This document shows, one piece after another, positions 1,554 to 44,625 of a DNA stretch of 44,852 nt. The position numbers and the translations under genes were made by a program. The notes beneath the pieces were generated by a model. That model was not told where the DNA came from. It was given only the letters and a program-made list of their open reading frames with translations, and made no database searches. Positions within the stretch are counted from its first letter, which is position 1. Every line of letters starts with the position of its first letter. The DNA is from a phage. Where the stretch lies: the sequence record PZ239914.1, one strand, 5' to 3'.

Positions 1554-2020
1554 AATTACTGATTTGCGATTTGGATGGCGTTATTAACGGCTCAAGTGAT
1601 GCGCGCGCCGACCTGGTGCCGGGTATAAAAACCAAATCCACCTTTTGGGCAAAGTGGCACAAAGCGCACGTACGCGAAGACCTGAACATGGATATGCTGC
1701 CGCTGCTGCGTATGTATGAAGAGCAAGGCTTCAAGATTGCGTATCTGACAAACCGGCAGCGCGAATGTTGGGAAACCACCGCCGAGCAACTGGAAGTATT
1801 CCCGAACGGCCGGTTGTTCATGCGCCATATGCAGGACGACACCCCGCCGCCCGAGTTTAAGGCGTGCGCCGTGTTCAAAATGGTCTGCTATGCGGACGTG
1901 TCCGAACTGGTCATCATTGAAGACTGTCCGAAGAACATAGCGGCAATTCGTCGGGCGTGTAGCGATTTGGTCCCGAAAATTTACGCAATAAATGTTGCGA
2001 AATTTACTTGCAACCAATAG
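1550..2020 (+). CDS. HAD-superfamily hydrolase/phosphatase-like protein
   Basis: N-terminal LICDLDGVI matches HAD motif I (DxDG); GAGAG RBS upstream. Confidence 0.55.
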   Translation: MKLLICDLDGVINGSSDARADLVPGIKTKSTFWAKWHKAHVREDLNMDMLPLLRMYEEQGFKIAYLTNRQRECWETTAEQLEVFPNGRLFMRHMQDDTPPPEFKACAVFKMVCYADVSELVIIEDCPKNIAAIRRACSDLVPKIYAINVAKFTCNQ

Positions 2021-2037
2021 GTTGGTTGCACTATAGT
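2008..2037 (+). promoter_or_regulatory. candidate sigma70-type promoter (TTGCAA-18-TATAGT) overlapping an inverted TTGCAACCAA/TTGGTTGCA pair
   Basis: -35 TTGCAA 2008-2013, -10 TATAGT 2032-2037; inverted 9-mers at 2008-2017 and 2022-2030. Confidence 0.4.
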
Positions 2038-2082
2038 TAACGCGTCGGGGCAATACGGCCCCACGCTAAAAAGGACCACATA

Positions 2083-2637
2083 ATGAAAGCATACGAATAC
2101 TGCAAAAACGCCGCCACCACTATGGAACAGCGCGGGAAAGAAAACGGCTATGACAACGCGAAAGAAGAACGCAGCGCTAAACAAATCGCTGCCGTGTTTA
2201 ACGCGCTTACCGGTCGCGACCTTACCGAGCAGGAAGCCTGGACCTTCCTGATCTGCCTGAAGCTGGTACGCCAGCACCGCAAGCACCAGGAAGACAATAT
2301 TGTTGACCTGGTAGCATATGCCGCACTGCTGGGCGAGTCTCACATGACCGTGCATGACGAGATTCAGATCGATACAACGGCAGAACAGTTTGAAAGTCTC
2401 AAAGGCCTGTCCGTGCGTCTCGACGGTGAGATTAATGCGTATAACAGCGCAATTCGCGTTGCGGAGGACACGATAGCCTCGTTCGGCAAGACTGTTAAGG
2501 CCCGCGATTTTGGGTGTGTAGCCCAGGACGTCCAGCCTATGGTCGTGCTCACCGGTGAAGACGGATCGAAAATCTGCATGACGCAGGAAGATTTCCGCAA
2601 CATGGAAAAAACACTGGTGACTGGCGCACTTAAATAA
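2083..2637 (+). CDS. hypothetical protein (184 aa)
   Basis: ATG with AAAGGA RBS; preceded by a GC hairpin and AGGACCACA leader; no recognised catalytic motif. Confidence 0.6.
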   Translation: MKAYEYCKNAATTMEQRGKENGYDNAKEERSAKQIAAVFNALTGRDLTEQEAWTFLICLKLVRQHRKHQEDNIVDLVAYAALLGESHMTVHDEIQIDTTAEQFESLKGLSVRLDGEINAYNSAIRVAEDTIASFGKTVKARDFGCVAQDVQPMVVLTGEDGSKICMTQEDFRNMEKTLVTGALK

Positions 2638-2679
2638 TTCTAATCGCGGGCTTCGGCCCGCATCAATGAGGACCACACG

Positions 2680-3249
2680 ATGTACGGCGAATATGAAATA
2701 TCTGGTAAACAATTCCACCTGGCGGCAATGATAGCAAGCATCGAGTTTGACCAGTGGCGCTTAAAGTCCGACGCGTGCAAGCAAAGCCGTCTTGTTGGTG
2801 TGCTGGGCGAGATGTTTGCAGGCATGTATCTCGAAGGGCAAGCAGGAGGGCGCAGTTGTATACCGCAAGGCTTGCTTATGCGTACGGGCCTGTTTAGCGC
2901 CAATACCATTGACCGCGGCGATATCATCATGGTCGGCAAGCGCAAGGTAAAGTCCGGCCCCGACTTCCGCGAGCATGTGATCGATGCCGTATGGACCTAC
3001 GAAGTTAAGGCCACCAGCGGCATCCGTCGCGGACTGGTAGAGGCGCGTTGCGCTCGCGAGTATCTTGCCCGTCGAGTTGCAGGTGTTATCCTGGTAAGCG
3101 TAGCGTTCGGGCAGCATAACGCGCACGGCGTGATTGAGGATATCGCAGAGCCATACGTGATTGTTAATGACTGGCCCTTAGTGGAAGTGGATGGAAAGGA
3201 GTATTACGAAAGCCCGCTGGTGCGTCGCAAGATAGAAAACGGGGCATAA
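2680..3249 (+). CDS. hypothetical protein (189 aa)
   Basis: ATG with GAGGA RBS; preceded by the GCGGGC-UUCG-GCCCGC hairpin and AGGACCACA leader. Confidence 0.6.
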   Translation: MYGEYEISGKQFHLAAMIASIEFDQWRLKSDACKQSRLVGVLGEMFAGMYLEGQAGGRSCIPQGLLMRTGLFSANTIDRGDIIMVGKRKVKSGPDFREHVIDAVWTYEVKATSGIRRGLVEARCAREYLARRVAGVILVSVAFGQHNAHGVIEDIAEPYVIVNDWPLVEVDGKEYYESPLVRRKIENGA

Positions 3250-12411: not shown

Positions 12412-15054
12412 TCATCGTTTGTAAAGTACACCACCCGGTTTCGTCGCCTTCACGATCTCGGCCTTGACCGACTCGGTGATTTGCTTTCCGAACGCCTGCG
12501 CGGTGCGCGGGTCTGGACCGCTAACACTGGTATCCGTCTTACCGGTCCCCATGTTAACGTTGGTCGTTACAATCATCCCCCCGCCTACACCGGCAGCGGC
12601 AACGCCCAGTTTCCCGTCTGGCCCGCGCTTCAGTGGCATGATGGCTTCGGGTCCGGCCTCACCCATCAATCCTGCGCCCTTAGCGAACGCCTGGACGCCA
12701 TAACTGAAAAAGGTGGGCTGGCTTACCACTTGCCCCGAATAGGCCGCGAGGTTGCCCCCTGCGTACGCTCCGCCGTCCGCATTCTTAGTGAGGCCGGAAA
12801 AGATAGCGCCGAACAATCCGTTTTTGCCGCCGTCGCCACCGAAAGCGCTAACGATGGATTTGAACGCCTGCGAGGTAGCCAGCTTTATTAATTCGCTCAG
12901 AATGGACTTAACCATATCTTTTGCGTTCAGCTTGCCTGTCTCGAAAAACTCGTTCATCGTGTCCTGCATAGCGCCGAACGTGAATTTTGTGAGTGACGTC
13001 ATCTGCGTATAGCCGTTACCCATTTCATCAACGCTATCCTTAAGCCCGCGGCTGAAGCCATCCCATAGCGAGGCGTTAGCACCGGTCTGTGCTTCCTGCA
13101 CTTCGCGCAGCTTAGACACCGCCAGGTCAATATCGGTATCGCTAGCGCCCACCCGCTTAAGGCGGTCAATCAGCTGCAATTCTTCGCGCAGGTTAGCCGC
13201 TTCGCGAGTGGAAAGCGCATAGCCCGCAGCGGTGGCTTTTAGCTCGGCGTTCTGGTTCTTAACGAAGGCGTCGATCTGCGCGTGCGCCTTGACCTGCTTC
13301 TCTTTCGCGTCCAGCAATTTGGCTTCTTCGACGATCTGCTCGCGTACTTCCTTCACGCGTCCGAATTCGACCATCTGCTGCTTTTCTGCTGCCGTTAGTG
13401 CTCTTTCTTTGCTTGCTGCGATTAACTGCTCATTATCCGCGATCAGCTTGTTTAGGGCCGCCTGCGCGCGTTGCGTGCGGGTCTGCGTCGATGCGTTGGC
13501 TTCGATCTGCTTTCCAGACTCACGAAGCTGGGCTAATTCGCTTCGCGCGACTTCCAGCATTTTCAGCCCGGCATCGACTCGAACAGCGGCGGCCTTCTTC
13601 GGGGCGGGGTCTTTGTAACGCTCGTTTACCTGCTTCACCGCCTCGGCAAGCTCTTTCTCGTCAATCACGCCGCGCTTATTAAGCAAATTGAGGCGGGCGA
13701 TCTCGTCGGCTCGCCTCTTCGCGTTGGTTGCGTACTCCTTCTCGAACGCGGCGCGGTCGCGGGCGGTGCGGTTGGCCTCTTCGTTCGCCTTTGCTGCTTC
13801 GTCCGCGGCACTTGCGTTGTCTCGCTCGGCACGGTTACGCAGGGTGAGCGACGCCACTACTTTTTCCTGGGCTACCAGTTCGCTGTAAAGCATGTTAATA
13901 CGCGCTTTCTGCGCTTCGGTCATCACCCCACCGGCAGCGTTTACCGCTTTCATCTCGGCATAGTAAGCCGTGGTCAGTCGCTGCAATGATTCACGCGCTT
14001 TCATCTCTGACTCATTCGAGGACTGCGCGCGTCCAACATCCAGGATGGCATCCCACATAGATTTAGCTGCCGATGTAACGACGTTCATCGACCGCTCAAG
14101 CGTACCCATGTTGGACTTAATATCGTTGGTCATAGTGGTGAACGACGCCGCGGCGGTTTTGTTAGCCAATGCAACCGCGTCTGTCTCGCGACCCATATCC
14201 ACAAGCGACTGCACCTGCTGGATCTGCGCTTCGTTTACGACGTGATACTTATCCGCCAATGCTCGCAAGCCGCCTACCGGGTCGGTTGACAGCTTCGCCA
14301 CCGCCGCGACCACATCCTCGACCGGCTGGCTGGACACCTTCGCAAAGTCATTCACCACTTTCGCCAGCGTGCCGAAGTCCGCACCCGCTTTCACACCAGC
14401 CGCCGCCAGCGCCTGGATTGTGTCACGCGTCTTGCGGAACGACCCACCCATGCGCTCGGCGTTCTCGGATAGCACCAGGATCTGGTTTGCCGTCAGGCCG
14501 GAAATGTTACCGGAAAGTGCCAGCGTCTTGTTAAGCGCGGCGACCTGGTTCTCTGCGCGGGACGTAATTGCCACGCCCACGCCTAACGTTGCCGTTACGG
14601 CGGCAAGGCCGATCCCTACTGGGCCGAGGAAGCCAGCAACATAACGCAGCGTGTTACCCAGTCCGCCGAATGCCCCAGTTAGCTGCGGTAACTGCTGAAG
14701 CATGACGCGGTGGACCGGCATCCCCATCTCAAGCGTAACTGCGATATCCTGTAACTGGAATGCGGCGTTACGCGAGGCAAAGCCCAGGTTTTTGGTCGAC
14801 ATGCCTAACCGGTTTGCAAGTCGCTCCTGTTTCGTCATACCGTCGGCGGCGCGCTGCGATTCGTTCGCCAGCTTCTCCATTCCGCCCGCGGCGTCACTCG
14901 TCACCTTTTTGGATTTGCCGAGTGTGTCGTTTAATTTCTTAACCTTGTTTTCTGTGTTCTCGGATTTCTGTGCGAATGAATCAAGCACAGTATTCGCCGT
15001 TCTGATTTGTGCAACATCCGCCTTTAGCGTGATGCCTGCTGCTTGATCTGCCAT
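12412..15054 (-). CDS. tail tape measure protein
   Basis: 880 aa, Ala/Gln/Lys-rich helical; Gly-rich hydrophobic segments; position between G-T and M. Confidence 0.85.
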   Translation of the reverse strand: MADQAAGITLKADVAQIRTANTVLDSFAQKSENTENKVKKLNDTLGKSKKVTSDAAGGMEKLANESQRAADGMTKQERLANRLGMSTKNLGFASRNAAFQLQDIAVTLEMGMPVHRVMLQQLPQLTGAFGGLGNTLRYVAGFLGPVGIGLAAVTATLGVGVAITSRAENQVAALNKTLALSGNISGLTANQILVLSENAERMGGSFRKTRDTIQALAAAGVKAGADFGTLAKVVNDFAKVSSQPVEDVVAAVAKLSTDPVGGLRALADKYHVVNEAQIQQVQSLVDMGRETDAVALANKTAAASFTTMTNDIKSNMGTLERSMNVVTSAAKSMWDAILDVGRAQSSNESEMKARESLQRLTTAYYAEMKAVNAAGGVMTEAQKARINMLYSELVAQEKVVASLTLRNRAERDNASAADEAAKANEEANRTARDRAAFEKEYATNAKRRADEIARLNLLNKRGVIDEKELAEAVKQVNERYKDPAPKKAAAVRVDAGLKMLEVARSELAQLRESGKQIEANASTQTRTQRAQAALNKLIADNEQLIAASKERALTAAEKQQMVEFGRVKEVREQIVEEAKLLDAKEKQVKAHAQIDAFVKNQNAELKATAAGYALSTREAANLREELQLIDRLKRVGASDTDIDLAVSKLREVQEAQTGANASLWDGFSRGLKDSVDEMGNGYTQMTSLTKFTFGAMQDTMNEFFETGKLNAKDMVKSILSELIKLATSQAFKSIVSAFGGDGGKNGLFGAIFSGLTKNADGGAYAGGNLAAYSGQVVSQPTFFSYGVQAFAKGAGLMGEAGPEAIMPLKRGPDGKLGVAAAGVGGGMIVTTNVNMGTGKTDTSVSGPDPRTAQAFGKQITESVKAEIVKATKPGGVLYKR

Positions 15055-15117
15055 TATGCAGTCCCCTTTTTTATGCAGTTGCCGGTTGACATTGTATCAG
15101 CGAATTTAAAACAAACC

Positions 15118-15291
15118 TTATGCAGTCTCAGACGAGGGGGGCCGTTGACCCCCGTCTAGTCTGAAAGACTGGGCTTTGTCCCGCTTGTCCCGATCGGCTG
15201 AAAACCGCGGCAGCACTGGCGGGGACGTGGTGCTGTCCCGCTTTGTCCCGCTCCTTGTTTGTCCCGCTTTCTGTCCCGCTCAGTTTATGCA
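15118..15291. repeat. iteron-rich noncoding repeat element, copy A
   Basis: About 174 bp, roughly 85% identical to 32339-32512; starts TTATGCAGTCTCAGACGAGGGGGGCC with nested hairpins, then six direct TGTCCCGCT-type units, ends AGTTTATGCA. Confidence 0.8.
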
Positions 15292-15439
15292 CGAAATACG
15301 AATAGGTATGCACATTTGTGGGGTGGGACAAAACGGGACGTCCCGCTTGTCCCGCTTTTAGATTATGCAATGGTAGTGATTAGATATGCGGTTTTGCAGG
15401 GGCGGGACAAAACGGGACGCCCCGATCAGTCCCGCTTCA
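15292..15439. repeat. additional direct and inverted GTCCCGC/GGGAC iterons extending copy A
   Basis: GGGACAAAACGGGAC at 15325-15339 and 15405-15419 (inverted) plus direct GTCCCGC units at 15340, 15349 and 15430. Confidence 0.7.
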
Positions 15440-15763
15440 TTATGCTGGGTTCTGCTGCGCCATCTCATCAAGCGCGATTCGTTCCATTAGCTTGATATCT
15501 TTAAACGCTCGCTGCTCGTTTTCTACACCGTGCATCTTAAATAACCACTCCAGCACGCCGTAGTCGATGCCGTATGCGCCACCAAATCCTGTGCGCCATT
15601 GCGTGGAGCAATCTGTGAAGACTGCGACTACCTTCGCGTTGTCGGGCCATAGCGCAACAGGCGGACAAACATCTTCGGGGGCCGCGCCCCATAAACTTGC
15701 GGCTAAATCTTCGGAGGGTGGCGGCGGGCCATAAAAGCGTCGCGCCGCCTCAATTAGTTTTTT
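15440..15763 (-). CDS. tail assembly chaperone T-like extension, expressed by -1 frameshift as a G-T fusion
   Basis: 105 sense codons open in the -1 frame from the slip site to the TAA at 15440-15442; no ATG-initiated ORF of 60 aa or more; -1 frame closed by TGA just upstream. Confidence 0.65.
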   Translation of the reverse strand, partial: KKLIEAARRFYGPPPPSEDLAASLWGAAPEDVCPPVALWPDNAKVVAVFTDCSTQWRTGFGGAYGIDYGVLEWLFKMHGVENEQRAFKDIKLMERIALDEMAQQNPA

Positions 15764-16116
15764 TCACGCAACCCCATCAGTTCGAGATAGTACGACGTGT
15801 GGAACACACCGAACGCGCGTGGATAGTTGACCACCAGGCGGCGGACGTTCTCCGCGTTAAATTCGTCCGGCAGATTCCAGCCTTCTGCGACGTGCATGAT
15901 GGCCTCGACCATAACGTTAAAGCCGTCCGGGTCATTGTCGTCATATTCCGATAGCTTTCGTTCAGTTTCCTGCATGGTTTGCGAAAATTCGTCGATCGGG
16001 CGGTGGCGGACGGTAAACGTCATCTTGCCCGGCTCGTTCTCACCAGGGCGCGGAATCTCAATCGGCAGCTTAAAGGTTGGCTTAGGGTCAAGTGTGAAGA
16101 GTGGTGCTTTAGCCAT
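15754..16116 (-). CDS. tail assembly chaperone (lambda G-like)
   Basis: 120 aa from the ATG at 16116 (GGAGA RBS); between the major tail gene and the tape measure; ends in the slippery site. Confidence 0.7.
   Translation of the reverse strand: MAKAPLFTLDPKPTFKLPIEIPRPGENEPGKMTFTVRHRPIDEFSQTMQETERKLSEYDDNDPDGFNVMVEAIMHVAEGWNLPDEFNAENVRRLVVNYPRAFGVFHTSYYLELMGLREKN
15757..15763 (-). other. programmed -1 ribosomal frameshift heptamer A_AAA_AAC
   Basis: Minus-strand GAA AAA AAC TAA at the end of the G-like ORF; textbook X_XXY_YYZ site two codons before the stop. Confidence 0.65.
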
Positions 16117-16131
16117 TGTAGTATTCTCCAA

Positions 16132-16156
16132 TAAAAAAGGGGCCGTGCTGGCCCCA
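16132..16156 (-). terminator. intrinsic terminator/attenuator after the major tail protein gene
   Basis: Minus strand GGGGCC-agcac-GGCCCC followed by U6, directly upstream of the G RBS. Confidence 0.55.
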
Positions 16157-16185
16157 TATTATCACTCGCTATTTAAGCGACCAAA

Positions 16186-16911
16186 TCAAGACAACGCCTC
16201 GACCAGATCCTTACGGTAGATAACCATATCAGACTGCATGGTCAGAGTGGACTGCACCGTTTCCACGTTGTTTACTTCAGCGGAAGGAATCTTCTGGAAA
16301 GATACCTTTGCCGGGTAAATACGGATCTCACCTTTGCCGCTTGCTGCCGCTGGGTTAGTGAACTTAATCACAGTGGTTTTCTGTGTGTCGTCCAGGTCTT
16401 CCAGGATTGGGCGGATCGGGTCTTCTTCGTCGTGGGTGAAAGTGTAAGTCTGTACCAACGGGTTTTTCGTGGTGTTCAGACTGATTGCGGTGTTCACCTG
16501 CAACGGCTGGAAGGTAGTCGTCTGCTGGTCGCCACCAGACACGGCAACGTTAGTAATGAAAGGGAAGTCGATAAAGCTCGACACCTTCACCACTTCGCCC
16601 GGAGTGCCTACGCTGAAAGCGCCGGTCGGGTATTTTGTGACGTCTTCGGTGTCGAAGCGCGCCAGCGTAACGTCGTTGGTGTCCACTTTACCCACGATGA
16701 ATGCGCGGTTAAGCGCTCGGACCCACGGGGTTTTAGTGAACATAACCACGTCGCCAACAACCAGGCCATGCGAAGCCGCACAGGTAATTACGCAACCTTG
16801 CGTAAGGTCGGAGATCGACGCGGCGGCGTTGGTAGCTGCCGTAACAGCGATGCCGCTGCCCAGTACGGACCCAATCTGGACGCTGGACCCGTTAGGAAGT
16901 TGATAACCCAT
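16186..16911 (-). CDS. major tail protein (by position)
   Basis: 241 aa, CAGGAG RBS; upstream of G/G-T and followed by a terminator, as expected for a highly expressed tail tube gene. Confidence 0.6.
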   Translation of the reverse strand: MGYQLPNGSSVQIGSVLGSGIAVTAATNAAASISDLTQGCVITCAASHGLVVGDVVMFTKTPWVRALNRAFIVGKVDTNDVTLARFDTEDVTKYPTGAFSVGTPGEVVKVSSFIDFPFITNVAVSGGDQQTTTFQPLQVNTAISLNTTKNPLVQTYTFTHDEEDPIRPILEDLDDTQKTTVIKFTNPAAASGKGEIRIYPAKVSFQKIPSAEVNNVETVQSTLTMQSDMVIYRKDLVEALS

Positions 16912-18962: not shown

Positions 18963-18988
18963 TAAAAAAGGCGGGCATAAGCCCGCCC
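18963..18988 (-). terminator. intrinsic terminator/attenuator after the major capsid gene
   Basis: Minus strand GGCGGGC-uuau-GCCCGCC followed by U6. Confidence 0.6.
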
Positions 18989-19006
18989 ATTTGGGATGTG
19001 CGCCCT

Positions 19007-20107
19007 TTAAGACGCGGTGGTCGCAGTCAGCGTAACCAGTACGCCAGCGGTTTCCTTGATGTGACGGGTAGGCACTGCCTGTGCGGCCTGGGTCTTACGA
19101 CGGCCTTTAGTATCGCCATCACCCACAGCGCCAACGTCCTGCACGGTTGCCGGTGCGTTGTCTACCTGGCCCTGGTCCAGTTCCCAGTTAGCGGAAGTGG
19201 TGATATCGTCCAGCTTGAACGAGCGGACGCCTTCGATCGGGGTACGCGCGGACGCCTTCAGACGGTAGCCTTTAACAGCCACGTTGAAGTCGAACTCGCC
19301 CTGCCACCAGCGCTCGATGTTCTCGTTACCGCCTTTCTCCTGCGCCAGCATATCGAGGCCGTTGGTGGTAACTGCAACCGCGCCAGGGACCAGACCCAGC
19401 ATGTTACCCGCCCCCATAGCATCGGCAGCGGCATCGGAGATAATGAAGCGACGGCCCAGGCCATCACCCATTACCTGGAGATCGCCAATTGCGAATACCT
19501 GTTCAGCGGAAGGGAGTGCCTGGTACGCAATGAAGTTTGCCCAGGTAACGCCGTCCATAAACCACGACTTAATCAAAGACGCCTGATCGCCGAACTTAGA
19601 AGCCGCCAGCGGGAAGTCTGCCAGGGTCGGGAAGGTACGACCGCCAACGCCGTCAACGCGCGCCGGTTGGGTGTATTTTGCCGCTGCGTTGCTTTCGATC
19701 GCCGCTTTACTTGCGCCGATACCCGCTTTTAGGTAATGCAGCATAATCGCTTGCGTGGCCTGTGCCGCAATCTCAGCCGCAACGCTGTTAACGTTGGTTT
19801 CGATCTTAGCCATCATAGCCTTAGTGATTGCCACCGGACCCACTTTCGCGGACAGGTTAACCGAGTTGGTCAGCATACGCGCCAGCACTTTAGCGGTTGC
19901 CGGAGTACCAACAGGGGCATATGCGTTACGGTCGGTAACAAGGTTGGCGATCAAGCCTACGGACATTTTTTCTACAACATCCTTCAGCACTTCACCAGTA
20001 CCGAGAACAACAGCGCCATTGGCGGCGGCGTTGAAAACGTTCAGGTTGTCGGGGATCATTTGCGTAACCGCGGTAACGAGTTTACGCTGGAACACTGTTA
20101 AAGACAT
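19007..20107 (-). CDS. major capsid protein
   Basis: 366 aa directly downstream of the scaffold gene and followed by a strong terminator. Confidence 0.7.
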   Translation of the reverse strand: MSLTVFQRKLVTAVTQMIPDNLNVFNAAANGAVVLGTGEVLKDVVEKMSVGLIANLVTDRNAYAPVGTPATAKVLARMLTNSVNLSAKVGPVAITKAMMAKIETNVNSVAAEIAAQATQAIMLHYLKAGIGASKAAIESNAAAKYTQPARVDGVGGRTFPTLADFPLAASKFGDQASLIKSWFMDGVTWANFIAYQALPSAEQVFAIGDLQVMGDGLGRRFIISDAAADAMGAGNMLGLVPGAVAVTTNGLDMLAQEKGGNENIERWWQGEFDFNVAVKGYRLKASARTPIEGVRSFKLDDITTSANWELDQGQVDNAPATVQDVGAVGDGDTKGRRKTQAAQAVPTRHIKETAGVLVTLTATTAS

Positions 20108-22638: not shown

Positions 22639-23734
22639 GCCATAGCCCCCTGTTTTTAAGCTGCGCAATAGTCATTAGTTCGCCCGTATCGGTGAACATC
22701 TTCGGCACTTTCACGCCTCGCATAATCTGGTCTGCGCGCTGCACCCCATATAATTCCTCCAGAATATGGCGCGGCTGGCGCTGCACCCAGGAGAAGAAAT
22801 CAGTCTGCGCGTCGACCTGCTCACTCAGCAATCGGCCCGCGTCAGCCTTCAGTGCCGGACGCTTACCACTGGGCCAATCTTCCATACCTTTGACTTTCCA
22901 CGTCTCCGTCGAACGGCAGCAATAATGCAGCTTGCCCGGACCAGCGCCATATTGTGACCCCGCCACCACTTTTCCGCCGCGCTTCCCTTTTGTATCGGGA
23001 GTAACATCAACCGGATAAAACAGGCGATCGCGTAGCTGGCACATGGGAGAAGTATGCGTGTCCAATGTAGCCAACCATTGGCGACCTTCGAGAATATCGT
23101 CATTAGCTTTTACCATTAATTCGCGGGCGGTTGCCGCATAGTGGTTGACCGCGGACTTAACAACGCTTGAGATTGCTTGCGCACTACGACCGCCTAGCGC
23201 GCGCCTCACGTCCGCAATAATTTCCATAGTCGGCTTGCCCTGAATGAATCCAGCGCGCACCTGATTCCCGATCTGCGTCCGGGTCCACTCCGAAAGTGAA
23301 TCGGGCCACTGCATCATGGTGTTACCCTGGAACGGGTTTTTCATTGCAGTCGCTGCAATCTGCGCGCCGGTCACAACGCCCACTACTTCGACCGCGGGCA
23401 CGGCGACCGCGGGCTGGATCGCCGCCGTTAATGTGTCGGCGAGATAATCAGCCTCGGTGTCGGCGAACTCCTGGAGGCTTTCAGCCAGCACCTTAAACTC
23501 GGTGCGCAGTTCCGTTTTGACGGTCTTGTCGAGTTGCGTTAAAAGTGTGGTAAGTGCCTTGTTGCTCATGGACTTTTTACCATCAAGTAACTCGGTCAAC
23601 TTACCCAGTAAAGCGGGCCGGAACTTCTCCCACATAGCCAGCACCATTCGCGCCTGGTCATTGCTCAGGCGCTGGGTGAAGATGTGACGGCGAATCATTC
23701 GATCCGCCAAATATTGATTAATTGTCTTCGCCAT
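22631..23734 (-). CDS. head morphogenesis / minor capsid protein (Mu F, SPP1 gp7-like position)
   Basis: 367 aa directly downstream of the portal gene. Confidence 0.6.
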   Translation of the reverse strand: MAKTINQYLADRMIRRHIFTQRLSNDQARMVLAMWEKFRPALLGKLTELLDGKKSMSNKALTTLLTQLDKTVKTELRTEFKVLAESLQEFADTEADYLADTLTAAIQPAVAVPAVEVVGVVTGAQIAATAMKNPFQGNTMMQWPDSLSEWTRTQIGNQVRAGFIQGKPTMEIIADVRRALGGRSAQAISSVVKSAVNHYAATARELMVKANDDILEGRQWLATLDTHTSPMCQLRDRLFYPVDVTPDTKGKRGGKVVAGSQYGAGPGKLHYCCRSTETWKVKGMEDWPSGKRPALKADAGRLLSEQVDAQTDFFSWVQRQPRHILEELYGVQRADQIMRGVKVPKMFTDTGELMTIAQLKNRGLWRD

Positions 23735-32338: not shown

Positions 32339-32512
32339 TTATGCAGTCTCAGACGAGGGGGGCCATTGACCCCCGTCTAGTCTGAAAGACTGGTAGTTGT
32401 CCCGCTTGTCCCGCTCCCCTCCAGGCCGCGTCCTCCGGGGCGGGACGGGGGTGCTGTCCCGTTTTGTCCCGCCTCTTGTTTGTCCCGCTTTTTGTCCCGC
32501 TTAGTTTATGCA
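32339..32512. repeat. iteron-rich noncoding repeat element, copy B
   Basis: Same 5' hairpin module and six TGTCCCGCT-type iterons as copy A, with a divergent central spacer; between the primase end and the 31800-32126 gene. Confidence 0.8.
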
Positions 32513-32586
32513 ATAAAACTGCATAACTATTCACTATATTCACACTACACGGCAACCAATACGACCAGATAAAAACACTCAAAATG

Positions 32587-42493: not shown

Positions 42494-43918
42494 ATGGCAC
42501 GATTCCGACGCCGCGAATATCAGAAGTTGATTACCGCGTTCATCCTCAAGCATAAGCGATGTAATATCTGGGCGACAATGGGTTCCGGTAAAACCGGCGC
42601 GACAATGTGGGCGCTGAATAAAATGTTCCAGACGGGCATCCTATCCCACCAGGCGGACCGCGTACTGGTGCTGGCCCCGCTGCGCGTTGCATCCGGCACC
42701 TGGCCCCCGGAGCAAGAAAAATGGCGGTTCTCCTCCTTGCTGGTAGTAGACGGCACCGGGCCAGAGAAAGACCGCATAGCCGCGCTGGAGAGCGACGCTA
42801 ACGTGGTTTGTGTTAACTATGATGTGGTTGAGTGGCTGGTTGACTATTACGGCGATGCGTGGCCATTTACGGTCGTTGTTGCCGATGAATCCACTAAGCT
42901 GAAAGGCTACCGAAGCAAGCAAGGCAGTAAGCGCGCACGCGCACTGGCCGCGATTGCACATAAACACGTCAAGCGCTGGATTAACCTGACCGGCACACCC
43001 GCGCCAAATGGCTTGAAAGACTTATGGGGTCAGACGTGGTTTGTCGACGGCGGCGAACGCCTCGGCAGTAGCTATAAGGCATTTACCGATCGCTGGTTCA
43101 TTAGCAAGCCTGTTAAGCCTGGCAGCTTCTCTATGCAGCACGCCCCGCTAAAGAACTCCGAGAAAGAGATACAACAACGTCTGTCTGACGTGTCCCTAAC
43201 CGTTGACGCGGCTGAATACTTCGGATGTGACAAGCCAATCTATACGCCGGTTGTTGTGGACCTGCCGAAGAAAGCCCGCAAGATTTACGACCAGTTTGAA
43301 AGTGAGCTATTTGCCGAACTGGAAAGCGGAACAGTGGAGGCGGCGAACGCCGCGGCGAAGACAATTAAGTGCCTTCAGCTAGCTTCCGGCGCTGTGTATA
43401 AGGTAGACGAAGACGGGGAACGGACAGACGAGTGGGTGAAGATTCACGACGCTAAGCTGGACGCGCTGGAAAGTATCGTGGAGGAGTTGAACGGTGCACC
43501 GTTGCTCGTTGCGTACCAATACAAACATGACCTGGCTCGTCTTAAGAAGAAATTTCCACACGGCGTTGCGTTGGGTAAAGGTAAGCAGGGCAATAAGGAT
43601 ATAGAAGCGTGGAACAGAGGCGAGATCCCCATCATGTTTGCACACCCGGCATCGGCAGGCCACGGCCTTAACTTGCAGGACGGAGGACATCACCTGGCAA
43701 TCTTCTCCGATACCTGGAACTTTGAGCACTTTTCGCAGATCGTTGAACGTATCGGGCCGGTTCGCCAGATGCAAGCAGGACACCCCCGTCCGGTATTCGT
43801 CTACATTATCCAGGCGCGCGGGACTTTGGACGAATTGGTTGCCGAGCGCCGCGACAGTAAGCGAGATATCCAGGACGACTTGATGGAATACATGAAAGCT
43901 AAAAAGGCGCGCAAATGA
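42494..43918 (+). CDS. SNF2-family helicase/ATPase
   Basis: Walker A GSGKTG; DExx box VVADEST; C-terminal helicase-like region; start reassigned to the ATG at 42494. Confidence 0.85.
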   Translation: MARFRRREYQKLITAFILKHKRCNIWATMGSGKTGATMWALNKMFQTGILSHQADRVLVLAPLRVASGTWPPEQEKWRFSSLLVVDGTGPEKDRIAALESDANVVCVNYDVVEWLVDYYGDAWPFTVVVADESTKLKGYRSKQGSKRARALAAIAHKHVKRWINLTGTPAPNGLKDLWGQTWFVDGGERLGSSYKAFTDRWFISKPVKPGSFSMQHAPLKNSEKEIQQRLSDVSLTVDAAEYFGCDKPIYTPVVVDLPKKARKIYDQFESELFAELESGTVEAANAAAKTIKCLQLASGAVYKVDEDGERTDEWVKIHDAKLDALESIVEELNGAPLLVAYQYKHDLARLKKKFPHGVALGKGKQGNKDIEAWNRGEIPIMFAHPASAGHGLNLQDGGHHLAIFSDTWNFEHFSQIVERIGPVRQMQAGHPRPVFVYIIQARGTLDELVAERRDSKRDIQDDLMEYMKAKKARK

Positions 43919-44625
43919 CTATTGCTAAAATGACAATCTGGTCACTGTTTGACGGCAGCGGCTTGATGATTGAGCGTGCTGCCGAGATGGGGCATAAGTG
44001 TTACTGCTTCAACTACTCCGAAGCCGATCATGGGTCTTACCTTGACTACCGTATTTATGGTCGCGGAATCCGTTATCGCAATGAGTTTATCGATCTGGAC
44101 TTTGTGGACCGCGCGATGAATGGAGATTTCGGTACGCCAGATATCATCTATGCGTTCCCGCCGTGTACGGATCTGGCGGTGAGCGGTGCGCCAGCTTTCC
44201 CGCGCAAGCGTGCAAAAGACCCAGCCTTTCAGCTTAAGGCGGTGCGCACCGCGAAGATCGCCGCTTACCTGGGTGACTTCTTCGAAGTGCCATATATGAT
44301 TGAGAATCCGCGCAGTGTGCTTTCCACCCAGTGGCGCAAGCCGGATCACTCGTTCGACCCGTGGGAGTATGGGGGCTATCTGCCGGTGGATGACGTACAC
44401 CCGCTCTTCCCGGAATACATCAACGCCCGCGATTCATATCCGAAGCTGACCTGCTTATGGACCGGCAACGGCTTCCGTATGCCAGAGAAGAGACCTGTTT
44501 TCGTTGAAAAAGGGTACTCGAAGCAGTATAGTCGCCTCGGAGGCAAATCAGCCCGCACAAAATTAATCCGGTCGCTCACTCCGCGCGGCTTCGCGATAGC
44601 GGTTAACGAGGAAAATTTAAGATGA
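43915..44625 (+). CDS. putative DNA methyltransferase with C5-cytosine-MTase-like motif order
   Basis: LFDGSGL (motif I-like), FPPCTDLAVSG (PC motif IV-like), MIENPRSV (motif VI-like); motifs are divergent. Confidence 0.45.
   Translation: MTIAKMTIWSLFDGSGLMIERAAEMGHKCYCFNYSEADHGSYLDYRIYGRGIRYRNEFIDLDFVDRAMNGDFGTPDIIYAFPPCTDLAVSGAPAFPRKRAKDPAFQLKAVRTAKIAAYLGDFFEVPYMIENPRSVLSTQWRKPDHSFDPWEYGGYLPVDDVHPLFPEYINARDSYPKLTCLWTGNGFRMPEKRPVFVEKGYSKQYSRLGGKSARTKLIRSLTPRGFAIAVNEENLR

What the first reader, a model, noticed from the sequence alone, without database searches (positions are those of the whole stretch)
15440..16116. Programmed -1 frameshift (A_AAA_AAC) producing a G-T-like tail chaperone fusion
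The G-like ORF ends ...GAA AAA AAC TAA. The -1 frame is closed by TGA just upstream of the heptamer and then open for 105 codons to a TAA at 15440-15442, with no internal ATG-started ORF of 60 aa or more. This matches the conserved tail assembly chaperone frameshift described in dsDNA tailed phages.
Basis: partly seen in the sequence, partly recalled or inferred. Interest (0 to 1): 0.5.

Follow-up and report, generated by a model that had tools for sequence, protein, structure and literature searches.

The report
Tail chaperone G/GT programmed frameshift
This coliphage makes a long form of its tail assembly chaperone by letting a few ribosomes slip back one base at A_AAA_AAC, a well-known phage trick that is real here but is not annotated in the nine related public genome records I opened.

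Summary
The window is a Dhillonvirus-like coliphage with its tail genes on the minus strand. A 120-codon ORF (16116..15754, Pfam Phage_TAC_4, E=9e-24) lies between the major tail and tape-measure genes and ends GAA AAA AAC TAA. The -1 frame opens at a TGA that overlaps the A-run. It then runs 105 codons to the TAA at 15442..15440 and encodes a complete DUF1799 domain (E=3e-21). That frame has no ATG/GTG/TTG before codon 69, so the domain can only be made as a fusion.

A slip-prone motif sits at the same aligned position in all 86 related loci: A_AAA_AAC plus stop in 64, G_GGA_AAC plus stop in 17, and A_AAG in 5. The -1 frame evolves as coding sequence in three clades. In 21 Dhillonvirus sequences, the least variable 13-codon window of G plus T starts at the heptamer (1/13 variable third positions against 66% overall). 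That window covers a 7-bp GC hairpin 7 nt downstream.

This is an ordinary member of the lambda G/GT class. The fusion product itself is inferred, not observed. Separately, the gap between T and the tape-measure gene holds an unexplained GCGGGAC repeat element that is duplicated near 32.4 kb.

The parts
16186..16911 (-). Major tail (tube) protein gene, upstream neighbour (context)
   Evidence: ORF list. Annotated as major tail or tail tube protein in SECphi18, UDS3lw, Pandora71 and jat.
16139..16155 (-). Intrinsic-terminator-like hairpin GGGGCCAGCACGGCCCC followed by TTTTTT, between the major tail gene and G (context). It probably lowers transcription of G/GT relative to the tube protein.
   Evidence: Terminator scan. 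T1 has an annotated terminator at the equivalent place. The attenuation role is inferred.
16126..16129 (-). GGAG ribosome-binding site, 9 nt upstream of the G start codon
   Evidence: Read from the sequence.
15754..16116 (-). G: tail assembly chaperone ORF, 120 aa plus TAA
   Evidence: Translation. Pfam PF08748 Phage_TAC_4, E=8.7e-24, profile positions 1-124 of 124. PHROG 569, E=1e-40. Same 363-nt CDS in public Dhillonvirus records.
15757..15763 (-). Slippery heptamer A_AAA_AAC (0-frame codons AAA AAC), followed directly by the 0-frame stop TAA at 15756-15754
   Evidence: Sequence. Identical in 21/21 Dhillonvirus loci and kept in 64 of 86 related loci. It is replaced by G_GGA_AAC in 17 and by A_AAG in 5.
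15764..15766 (-). TGA that closes the -1 frame immediately 5' of the heptamer. It confines entry into the T frame to this site.
15720..15749 (-). Candidate frameshift-stimulating stem-loop. Arms are GGCGGCG (15749-15743) and CGCCGCC (15726-15720), with a 16-nt loop. It starts 7 nt after the heptamer.
   Evidence: RNA folds. Same geometry in T1/TLS-like phages with two compensatory pairs; 97.6% of cells paired against 27-73% when the partner is slid. It lies inside the strongest synonymous-site suppression of the whole G+T region. The stimulatory role is inferred.
15440..15757 (-). T extension: 105 sense codons in the -1 frame (CTA 15757 to GCA 15443) plus TAA 15442-15440. It has no start codon of its own.
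   Evidence: Translation. Pfam PF08809 DUF1799, E=2.6e-21, profile positions 1-80 of 80. PHROG 680, E=1e-30. Third-codon-position bias of substitutions.
15440..16116 (-). Predicted GT fusion CDS, join(16116..15757, 15757..15440), 225 aa, junction ...LMGLREKN|LIEAARRF...
   Evidence: Both Pfam domains are found on the conceptual fusion. PHROG 17368 (213-position profile) matches G at profile positions 1-107 and T at 147-212. The alignment of conceptual fusions from 5 lineages is ungapped across the junction.
12412..15054 (-). Tape measure protein gene, downstream neighbour (context), 880 aa
   Evidence: ORF list. Annotated as tape measure protein in related records.

Best explanation
Proposed mechanism: this is a programmed -1 ribosomal frameshift of the lambda G/GT type.

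- Most ribosomes translating the tail assembly chaperone gene (16116..15754, minus strand) stop at TAA and release the 120-aa G protein.
- A minority slip back one base on A_AAA_AAC (15763-15757). Peptidyl-tRNA(Lys) re-pairs from AAA to AAA, and tRNA(Asn) re-pairs from AAC to AAA.
- Those ribosomes then read CTA ATT GAG... in the -1 frame and make a 225-aa GT protein whose C-terminal 105 residues form a DUF1799 domain.
- A GC-rich 7-bp stem-loop that starts 7 nt downstream probably pauses the ribosome over the heptamer. The adjacent 0-frame stop may contribute.
- By analogy with lambda, G and GT bind the tape measure protein, and the T domain recruits the major tail protein. Neither protein ends up in the virion.

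Shown here: the sequence anatomy, the domain content, the lack of any start codon, purifying selection on the -1 frame, conservation of a slip site, and RNA-level constraint at the site.

Inferred: that the fusion is actually made, its efficiency, the role of the hairpin, and the chaperone function.
For: - Anatomy: the 0 frame ends GAA AAA AAC TAA. The -1 frame is closed by TGA up to the heptamer and then open for 105 codons. The first ATG/GTG/TTG is at codon 69.
- Domains: G is Phage_TAC_4, full length, E=8.7e-24. The extension is DUF1799, full length (profile 1-80 on extension residues 25-101), E=2.6e-21. The domain therefore begins 44 codons before the first possible start codon.
- Gene order is major tail, G, T, tape measure.
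- Selection on the -1 frame: variable columns at codon positions 1/2/3 are 18/8/65 (Dhillonvirus), 16/9/51 (enterobacterial clade at 43% identity) and 18/15/66 (Pseudomonas-like clade at 37% identity). The bias is already significant in the first 100 nt after the G stop.
- Slip site across 86 loci: 64 have A_AAA_AAC plus stop, 17 have G_GGA_AAC plus stop, and 5 have GCA AAG GTC plus stop, which carries the shift-prone A_AAG tetramer. The codon before the heptamer is always NNA, even for four-fold degenerate Ala and Val codons.
- RNA-level constraint: in 21 Dhillonvirus sequences the least variable 13-codon window of all 224 codons starts at the heptamer. It has 1/13 variable third positions against 65.6% overall, binomial P=2.4e-5, about 0.005 after correction for about 212 windows.
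- Hairpin with a 7-nt spacer, shared with T1/TLS-like phages, with compensatory changes.
- Literature: A_AAA_AAC is a proven low-efficiency -1 site in E. coli, used by IS1 (PMC4066793; PMC5009743). AAAAAAC next to the stop of a tail chaperone gene was proposed as a frameshift site in Acinetobacter phage Loki (PMC5313236).
Against: - There is no direct evidence for the fusion protein. No proteomics or reporter data were available.
- A_AAA_AAC is a weak shifter in E. coli, which prefers ZZN to be all purine or all pyrimidine (PMC4066793), so efficiency may be low. That would still fit the small amount of GT needed.
- The hairpin is missing in Rtp-like, AHS24-like and other relatives.
- The hairpin's five invariant pairs also encode conserved Ala and Pro-Pro residues.
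- The compensatory evidence amounts to one or two evolutionary events.
- Folding energy of the wider 96-nt region is not exceptional, z=+0.30.
- The 385-nt gap between T and the tape measure gene is atypical for this module.
Confidence: 0.9

Rival explanations
1. Transcriptional slippage. RNA polymerase stutters on the A7 run (15764-15758) and adds one A to a fraction of transcripts. Standard translation of those mRNAs then yields a G-T fusion with junction ...REKK-LIEAAR...
For: The site contains seven consecutive A residues. The A-run is conserved in 64 of 86 loci.
Against: - Seven A residues is below the length (about 9 or more) at which E. coli RNA polymerase slippage becomes substantial. 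This threshold is from my own knowledge of the transcriptional-slippage literature.
- Homologous sites in 17 loci are G_GGA_AAC and in 5 loci GCA AAG GTC. These have no usable homopolymer yet keep the same two-frame arrangement.
- A structured element with the 7-nt spacing typical of ribosomal frameshift stimulators lies downstream and is under synonymous constraint.
Confidence: 0.05
2. T is made as a separate protein, either by initiation at a non-canonical codon or by termination-reinitiation at the G stop (UAAUU, with AUU in the T frame). There is then no fusion.
For: - An AUU codon in the T frame overlaps the TAA stop.
- In other clades an ATG lies 6 to 16 codons after the G stop.
- Gene callers list DUF1799 proteins as separate ORFs of 38 to 150 aa, with no fusion-length protein among the 150 best of 1111 clusters.
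Against: - Dhillonviruses have no ATG/GTG/TTG before codon 69, or codons 31 or 44 in a few strains.
- There is no Shine-Dalgarno sequence upstream of the AUU.
- The junction codon is not conserved as a start-like codon: AUU here, AUA, AGA and AAA in the other clades. The slip motif is conserved.
- Coding constraint in the T frame starts right at the junction.
- The called ORFs start at widely scattered positions of the domain (query positions 1-43). That pattern fits arbitrary start calls on an ORF that has no real start.
Confidence: 0.03
3. Chance or artefact. The -1 ORF is a non-functional remnant, or the frame break is a homopolymer sequencing error in what is really a single ORF.
For: Long -1 extensions after stop codons are common in this window. 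Homopolymer runs are error-prone in some sequencing chemistries.
Against: - The same break with an in-frame stop is present in all 86 related loci examined, and the region matches 159 Dhillonvirus records at 84-98% nucleotide identity.
- Both frames are under purifying selection.
- The extension has a full-length Pfam match, E=2.6e-21.
Confidence: 0.01

Closest known systems
Phage lambda gpG/gpGT tail assembly chaperones, made by a -1 frameshift at G_GGA_AAG (Levin et al. 1993; Xu, Hendrix and Duda 2004, both as cited in PMC5313236; reviewed in PMC5009743)
   Same: - The pair lies between the major tail protein and tape measure genes.
- A short upstream ORF is followed by a -1 ORF with no start codon.
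- An X_XXY_YYZ heptamer sits at the end of the upstream ORF.
- The expected result is a minor fusion product that shares the N-terminal chaperone core.
   Different: - There is no detectable sequence similarity to lambda G or T (hhalign probability below 1%). The domains here are Phage_TAC_4 and DUF1799.
- The heptamer is A_AAA_AAC and abuts the 0-frame stop.
- A candidate 3' stem-loop is present.
- T is separated from the tape measure gene by a 385-nt repeat-rich gap, whereas in lambda T overlaps H.
T1-like phages (Drexlerviridae): T1 ST40/ST39, TLS-like 'TfmA/TfmS', 'tape measure chaperone' pairs
   Same: - The protein family is homologous, at 32-41% identity over the conceptual fusion.
- They have the same A_AAA_AAC plus TAA junction.
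- The T1/TLS subclade has the same 7-nt spacer and 7-bp hairpin geometry.
- A terminator follows the major tail gene.
   Different: - In T1 the T ORF is followed almost directly by the tape measure gene.
- Rtp-like members lack the hairpin.
- AHS24-like members replace the heptamer with an A_AAG tetramer.
- None of the three records inspected (T1, SP-126, JLBYU26) annotates a joined CDS.
IS1 insA-insB' -1 frameshift at A_AAA_AAC in E. coli
   Same: It uses the identical heptamer in the same host. It is a proven low-efficiency site used to make a small amount of a fusion protein (PMC4066793).
   Different: IS1 is a transposable-element transposase, not a phage morphogenesis gene, and it has no established stimulator (PMC4066793). 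A conserved 3' hairpin is present here.
Acinetobacter phage Loki gp12/gp13
   Same: An AAAAAAC motif lies immediately next to the stop codon of the tail chaperone gene and was proposed to give a gp12-gp13 fusion (PMC5313236).
   Different: The host and phage lineage differ. That case is also only a sequence-based proposal. I did not test homology to the proteins here.

Membership tests
G/GT-type phage tail assembly chaperone pair expressed by programmed -1 frameshifting | The pair lies between the major tail (tube) protein gene and the tape measure protein gene. | tested here: met
   Gene order is MTP 16911..16186, G 16116..15754, T to 15440, TMP 15054..12412. A 385-nt gap between T and TMP is atypical.
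G/GT-type phage tail assembly chaperone pair expressed by programmed -1 frameshifting | [quoted passage not shown] | tested here: met
   T is at -1. The first ATG/GTG/TTG is at codon 69 of 107, whereas the DUF1799 domain starts at extension residue 25.
G/GT-type phage tail assembly chaperone pair expressed by programmed -1 frameshifting | A slippery X_XXY_YYZ heptamer lies in the 0 frame within the overlap. | tested here: met
   A_AAA_AAC at 15763-15757. The overlap is only 10 nt, so this is the only possible entry point.
G/GT-type phage tail assembly chaperone pair expressed by programmed -1 frameshifting | The two-frame arrangement and the slip site are conserved among relatives, and both frames are under purifying selection. 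| tested here: met
   All 86 loci carry a slip-prone motif at the aligned site. Third-position bias is seen in three clades.
G/GT-type phage tail assembly chaperone pair expressed by programmed -1 frameshifting | The upstream protein belongs to a recognised tail assembly chaperone family. | tested here: met
   Pfam PF08748 Phage_TAC_4, 84.5 bits against a cut-off of 21.1.
G/GT-type phage tail assembly chaperone pair expressed by programmed -1 frameshifting | The upstream protein has the fold of solved tail assembly chaperone structures. | tested here: inconclusive
G/GT-type phage tail assembly chaperone pair expressed by programmed -1 frameshifting | A fusion protein is detected at a low fixed ratio to G, and it is required for tail assembly. 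| not testable with these tools
   This needs mass spectrometry, western blotting and genetics.
Lambda gpT (T-domain) sequence family | Sequence homology of the extension to lambda T. | tested here: not met
   hhalign of the 11-sequence fusion alignment against lambda T gave probability 0.6%. The extension is DUF1799 instead. This does not bear on the mechanism, because G/T families are known to be highly diverged.
Bacterial -1 frameshift signals with a 3' stem-loop stimulator (dnaX / IS3-family type) | A stable stem-loop begins about 5-9 nt 3' of the heptamer and is conserved at the RNA level. | tested here: met
   The spacer is 7 nt and the stem is 7 bp, all G-C. 97.6% of cells are paired, with two compensatory pairs, across Dhillonvirus and T1/TLS-like phages. 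Synonymous variation is 1/13 against 66% overall. Its stimulatory activity was not tested.
Bacterial -1 frameshift signals with a 3' stem-loop stimulator (dnaX / IS3-family type) | An upstream Shine-Dalgarno-like stimulator. | tested here: inconclusive
   A GGGG tract lies 9-12 nt upstream, but its third positions vary among Dhillonviruses (GGG/GGA/GGC). I did no formal test.
Programmed transcriptional slippage | A homopolymer run long enough (about 9 or more A/T) for productive RNA polymerase slippage, conserved as a run. | tested here: not met
   The run is only A7. 22 of 86 homologous sites have no long run.

The most novel reading that the evidence does not exclude
The signal may be more than a generic G/GT site. 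It could be a distinct composite frameshift cassette made of three parts: a deliberately weak XXXAAAC heptamer, a 0-frame stop codon directly abutting it, and a stem-loop 7 nt downstream. This cassette would be conserved across Dhillonviruses, T1-like phages and other Proteobacteria phages. The abutting stop, through slow termination with tRNA(Asn) in the P site, might be the main trigger, rather than classical tandem slippage. The cassette would also define DUF1799 as the T domain of the Phage_TAC_4 chaperone family.
Probability: 0.2. Interest if true: 0.4.

Novelty: new member of a known kind. Interest (0 to 1): 0.25.

Why it matters
There are three practical consequences.

1. Annotation. 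The nine Dhillonvirus and T1-like records whose annotation I opened have no joined CDS. The product names listed for about 60 more Dhillonvirus records suggest none either. The T domain instead appears as truncated 31-90-aa "hypothetical" or "DUF1799" ORFs, or not at all. These genomes therefore lack an essential morphogenesis protein in their protein sets. Dhillonviruses and T1-like phages are used as model and therapeutic coliphages, and tail assembly chaperones are now known to be sensed by bacterial Avs17 receptors (bioRxiv 10.64898/2026.01.04.697583). Correct isoform models matter for that work.

2. Domain function. The result gives the uncharacterised Pfam family DUF1799 a context-based role as the frameshift-dependent T domain of Phage_TAC_4 chaperones. 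The family has 1111 clusters at 50% identity.

3. Frameshift signals. [quoted passage not shown]

The mechanism itself is textbook, so this does not change current understanding.

Tried and rejected
- ORF length as a significance test. Long -1 extensions after stop codons are common in this window because neighbouring genes lie in that frame, so I dropped this argument.
- Homology to lambda G and T by profile comparison: none found.
- PDB sequence search with the fusion alignment: nothing relevant.
- The search for homologous proteins with the fusion returned only 3 proteins and no fusion-length hit. The exhaustive representative search with T gave 1111 clusters, but none of the best 150 exceeded 150 aa. 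I therefore found no natural in-frame G-T fusion to support the model.
- Whole-region folding statistics around the site were not exceptional (z=+0.30 for 96 nt). A 45-nt fold that I cut too short gave z=-1.16. The case for the hairpin rests on comparative data instead.
- Rfam scan of 14900-16300: only sub-threshold chance hits to miRNA and sRNA families.
- Ksap1, the Dhillonvirus protein sensed by KpAvs2, turned up in the literature search but lies elsewhere in the genome and is unrelated to this locus.
- The Xu et al. 2004 paper could not be read. I could not check whether T1-like phages were already in their survey.

Full report
**What the window is**

A 1.95-kb query around the finding matches 159 phage records at 80-99% identity, almost all of them Escherichia Dhillonvirus. 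The best match is SECphi18 at 96%. The tail genes are on the minus strand:
- major tail protein, 16911..16186
- a 120-codon ORF, 16116..15754
- the region in question, down to 15440
- a 385-nt non-coding gap
- an 880-aa tape measure gene, 15054..12412

**Checking the observation**

- The ORF starts at ATG 16116, with GGAG nine nt upstream, and ends GAA AAA AAC TAA (15765-15754).
- In the -1 frame a TGA (15766-15764) sits directly in front of AAA AAA. The frame is then open from CTA (15757) for 105 codons to TAA 15442-15440.
- The first GTG in that frame is at codon 69 and the first ATG at codon 76.

One caution applies. A long -1 extension after a stop codon is not unusual in this genome. The median is 37 codons and the 90th percentile is 223 for 109 ORFs, because adjacent genes often use that frame. 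ORF length is therefore not the evidence that counts.

**What the two reading frames encode**

The upstream ORF is a full-length Pfam Phage_TAC_4 domain (tail assembly chaperone), E=8.7e-24. The -1 extension is a full-length DUF1799 domain, E=2.6e-21, with profile positions 1-80 on extension residues 25-101.

The domain therefore begins 44 codons before the first possible start codon, so it cannot be made by independent initiation. PHROG 17368, a 213-position profile, matches G with its first half and T with its second half.

**Comparative test**

Two scans of viral contigs, plus annotated records, gave 86 loci in five lineages:
- Dhillonviruses (21 loci)
- a single metagenomic lineage with 59% identity in G
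- an enterobacterial clade distantly related to PHB10/phiES15 (12 loci)
- a Pseudomonas phiAH14a-like clade (17 loci)
- T1/TLS/Rtp-like Drexlerviridae (35 loci)

In every locus T is in the -1 frame relative to G.

The last codons of G are:

| Ending | Loci | Motif |
|---|---|---|
| NNA AAA AAC + stop | 64 | A_AAA_AAC |
| CTG/TTG GGA AAC + stop | 17 | G_GGA_AAC |
| GCA AAG GTC + stop | 5 | shift-prone A_AAG tetramer |

A Serratia phage, not among the 86, has A_AAA_AAC nine nt before its stop. The codon before the heptamer always ends in A, even when it is a four-fold degenerate Ala or Val codon, while the codon before that one varies freely.

An alignment of conceptual fusions from all lineages is ungapped across the junction, with R-x-K-N-L-x-x-A/V-A conserved.

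**Selection on the -1 frame**

Variable alignment columns fall at T-frame codon positions 1/2/3 as follows:
- 18/8/65 in Dhillonviruses
- 16/9/51 in the enterobacterial clade
- 18/15/66 in the Pseudomonas-like clade

The bias is already significant in the first 100 nt after the G stop, which is upstream of any start codon (P=1e-4, 2e-3 and 1e-4).

**RNA-level signal**

A 7-bp all-G-C stem (GGCGGCG 15749-15743 paired with CGCCGCC 15726-15720, 16-nt loop) begins 7 nt after the heptamer. Its comparative support is as follows.
- It is invariant in Dhillonviruses.
- The 59% lineage keeps it with one G-U pair.
- T1/TLS-like phages have the same geometry with GGCGGUU/AACCGCC. That makes two compensatory pairs. 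97.6% of cells are paired, against 27-73% when the partner is slid.

Independently, I examined third-codon positions across all 224 codons of G plus T in 21 Dhillonvirus sequences. The least variable 13-codon window starts exactly at the heptamer. It has 1 of 13 variable positions against 65.6% overall (binomial P=2.4e-5, about 0.005 after correction for the number of windows). Variability resumes just past the 3' arm. This is the usual signature of a functional RNA element laid over coding sequence.

Limits on this evidence:
- The arms also encode conserved Ala and Pro-Pro residues.
- The compensatory evidence reflects few independent events.
- Rtp-like and AHS24-like phages lack the hairpin.
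- Bulk folding energy is unremarkable.

I treat the hairpin's stimulatory role as probable, not shown.

**Mechanism**

The best explanation is classical -1 programmed ribosomal frameshifting. With tRNA(Lys) on AAA and tRNA(Asn) on AAC, both slip back one base to AAA AAA, and the next codon read is CTA. The product is a 225-aa GT protein with junction ...LREKN-LIEAARRF....

A_AAA_AAC is a proven but weak -1 site in E. coli. It is used by IS1 to make small amounts of transposase (PMC4066793, PMC5009743). That fits the small GT:G ratio expected from lambda. The 0-frame stop abutting the heptamer is conserved in all 86 loci, though not in the Serratia phage, and may add to the pause. I could not test this.

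A terminator-like hairpin between the major tail gene and G, also annotated in T1, probably lowers chaperone expression relative to the tube protein.

**Rivals**

- Transcriptional slippage on A7 (confidence 0.05). The run is short, and 22 of 86 homologous sites have no usable homopolymer.
- Independent or re-initiated T (0.03). There is no start codon or ribosome-binding site. The junction codon (AUU, AUA, AGA, AAA) is not conserved, whereas the slip motif is. The called DUF1799 ORFs in databases start at scattered positions of the domain and are 38-150 aa long, as expected for an ORF with no real start.
- Chance or sequencing artefact (0.01). Excluded.

**Comparison with known systems**

Functionally and architecturally this is the lambda G/GT arrangement (Levin 1993 and Xu 2004 as cited in PMC5313236; review PMC5009743).

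It is not a sequence relative of lambda G or T. It belongs to the Phage_TAC_4 plus DUF1799 family that it shares with T1.

A structural test of the chaperone fold was inconclusive. No solved relative exists by sequence.

**Novelty**

The kind is well known, and AAAAAAC next to a chaperone stop has been proposed before in another phage (PMC5313236).

The annotation picture is:
- None of the nine records I opened carries a joined CDS: SECphi18, UDS3lw, Pandora71, JLBYU37, jat, T1, SP-126, JLBYU26 and ZDD2.
- The product names listed for about 60 Dhillonvirus records also suggest no fusion.
- T appears as 31-90-aa fragments, as an opposite-strand ORF, or not at all.

I found no paper describing the site for Dhillonviruses, but I could not read Xu et al. 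2004. My verdict is a new member of a known kind, of low to moderate interest.

**Seen in passing**

The T-to-tape-measure gap is not empty spacer.
- It holds nine GCGGGAC copies, two copies of GTCCCGTTTTGTCCC, five TGCATAA motifs and a GC hairpin.
- About 175 nt of it (15291-15118) is duplicated at roughly 85-90% identity at 32512-32339, in another intergenic region.
- The array is present in all the Dhillonvirus loci that cover the whole gap (5-8 copies each).
- T1 has no equivalent gap: its T ORF ends about 40 nt before the tape measure gene.
- It has no Rfam match, and its function is unknown.

Noticed in passing
window 15055-15439 (minus-strand orientation), and window 32339-32526: The 385-nt gap between T and the tape measure gene carries 9 copies of GCGGGAC (8 direct, 1 inverted), two copies of the 15-mer GTCCCGTTTTGTCCC, 5 copies of TGCATAA (the last overlaps the tape-measure ATG) and a hairpin GGGGGTCAACGGCCCCCC. 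About 175 nt of it (15291-15118) is repeated at roughly 85-90% identity at 32512-32339, in a second intergenic region upstream of a 108-aa ORF. The whole window has 22 GCGGGAC copies against 8.7 +/- 2.9 expected, and 15 of them are in these two clusters. The array is present in all the Dhillonvirus loci that cover the whole gap (5-8 copies each). It is annotated only as 'repeat_region' in phage jat, and T1 has no such gap. It has no Rfam match, and its folding z-score is -1.4. It could be a regulator-binding array or a promoter/terminator module. Its function is unknown.
   Followed up: partly
window 16139-16155 (minus strand): An intrinsic-terminator-like hairpin (GGGGCCAGCACGGCCCC then TTTTTT) lies between the major tail protein gene and G. 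T1 has an annotated terminator at the same position. It probably sets a lower transcript level for the chaperone and tape-measure genes than for the tube protein.
   Followed up: partly
L083-L087 (AHS24-like T1 relatives), about position 1190-1200 of each locus: In this subclade the A_AAA_AAC heptamer is replaced by GCA AAG GTC TAA. Only the A_AAG tetramer remains as a possible slip site, and there is no downstream hairpin. The T frame stays open and conserved. This is a natural case of slip-site turnover.
   Followed up: partly
Public records: NC_073071.1 (SECphi18) 18963-19334; NC_073054.1 (JLBYU37) 22891-23007; NC_005833.1 (T1) 19339-19506: The T region is mis-annotated in reference genomes. 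SECphi18 has an opposite-strand 55-aa 'hypothetical protein' inside T, plus a 31-aa 'DUF1799' fragment. JLBYU37 has a 38-aa DUF1799 fragment. T1 has a 55-aa fragment labelled 'tail length tape measure protein'. None of the nine records opened carries a joined CDS.
   Followed up: yes
window 1981-2718 (minus) and 43915-44625 (plus): Two other ORFs end near an in-frame X_XXY_YYZ heptamer and have a long open -1 frame beyond it. One has AAATTTC 15 nt before the stop with 130 open codons. The other has AAATTTA 3 nt before the stop with 77 open codons. These are most likely ordinary overlapping neighbour genes or spurious ORFs. I did not examine them.
   Followed up: no
Protein family level (DUF1799, PF08809): An exhaustive search with the T extension found 1111 clusters at 50% identity. 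The best 150 are 38-150 aa long and start at scattered positions of the domain, and none is of fusion length. This suggests that database DUF1799 entries are generally N-terminally truncated calls of frameshift-dependent T domains.
   Followed up: partly
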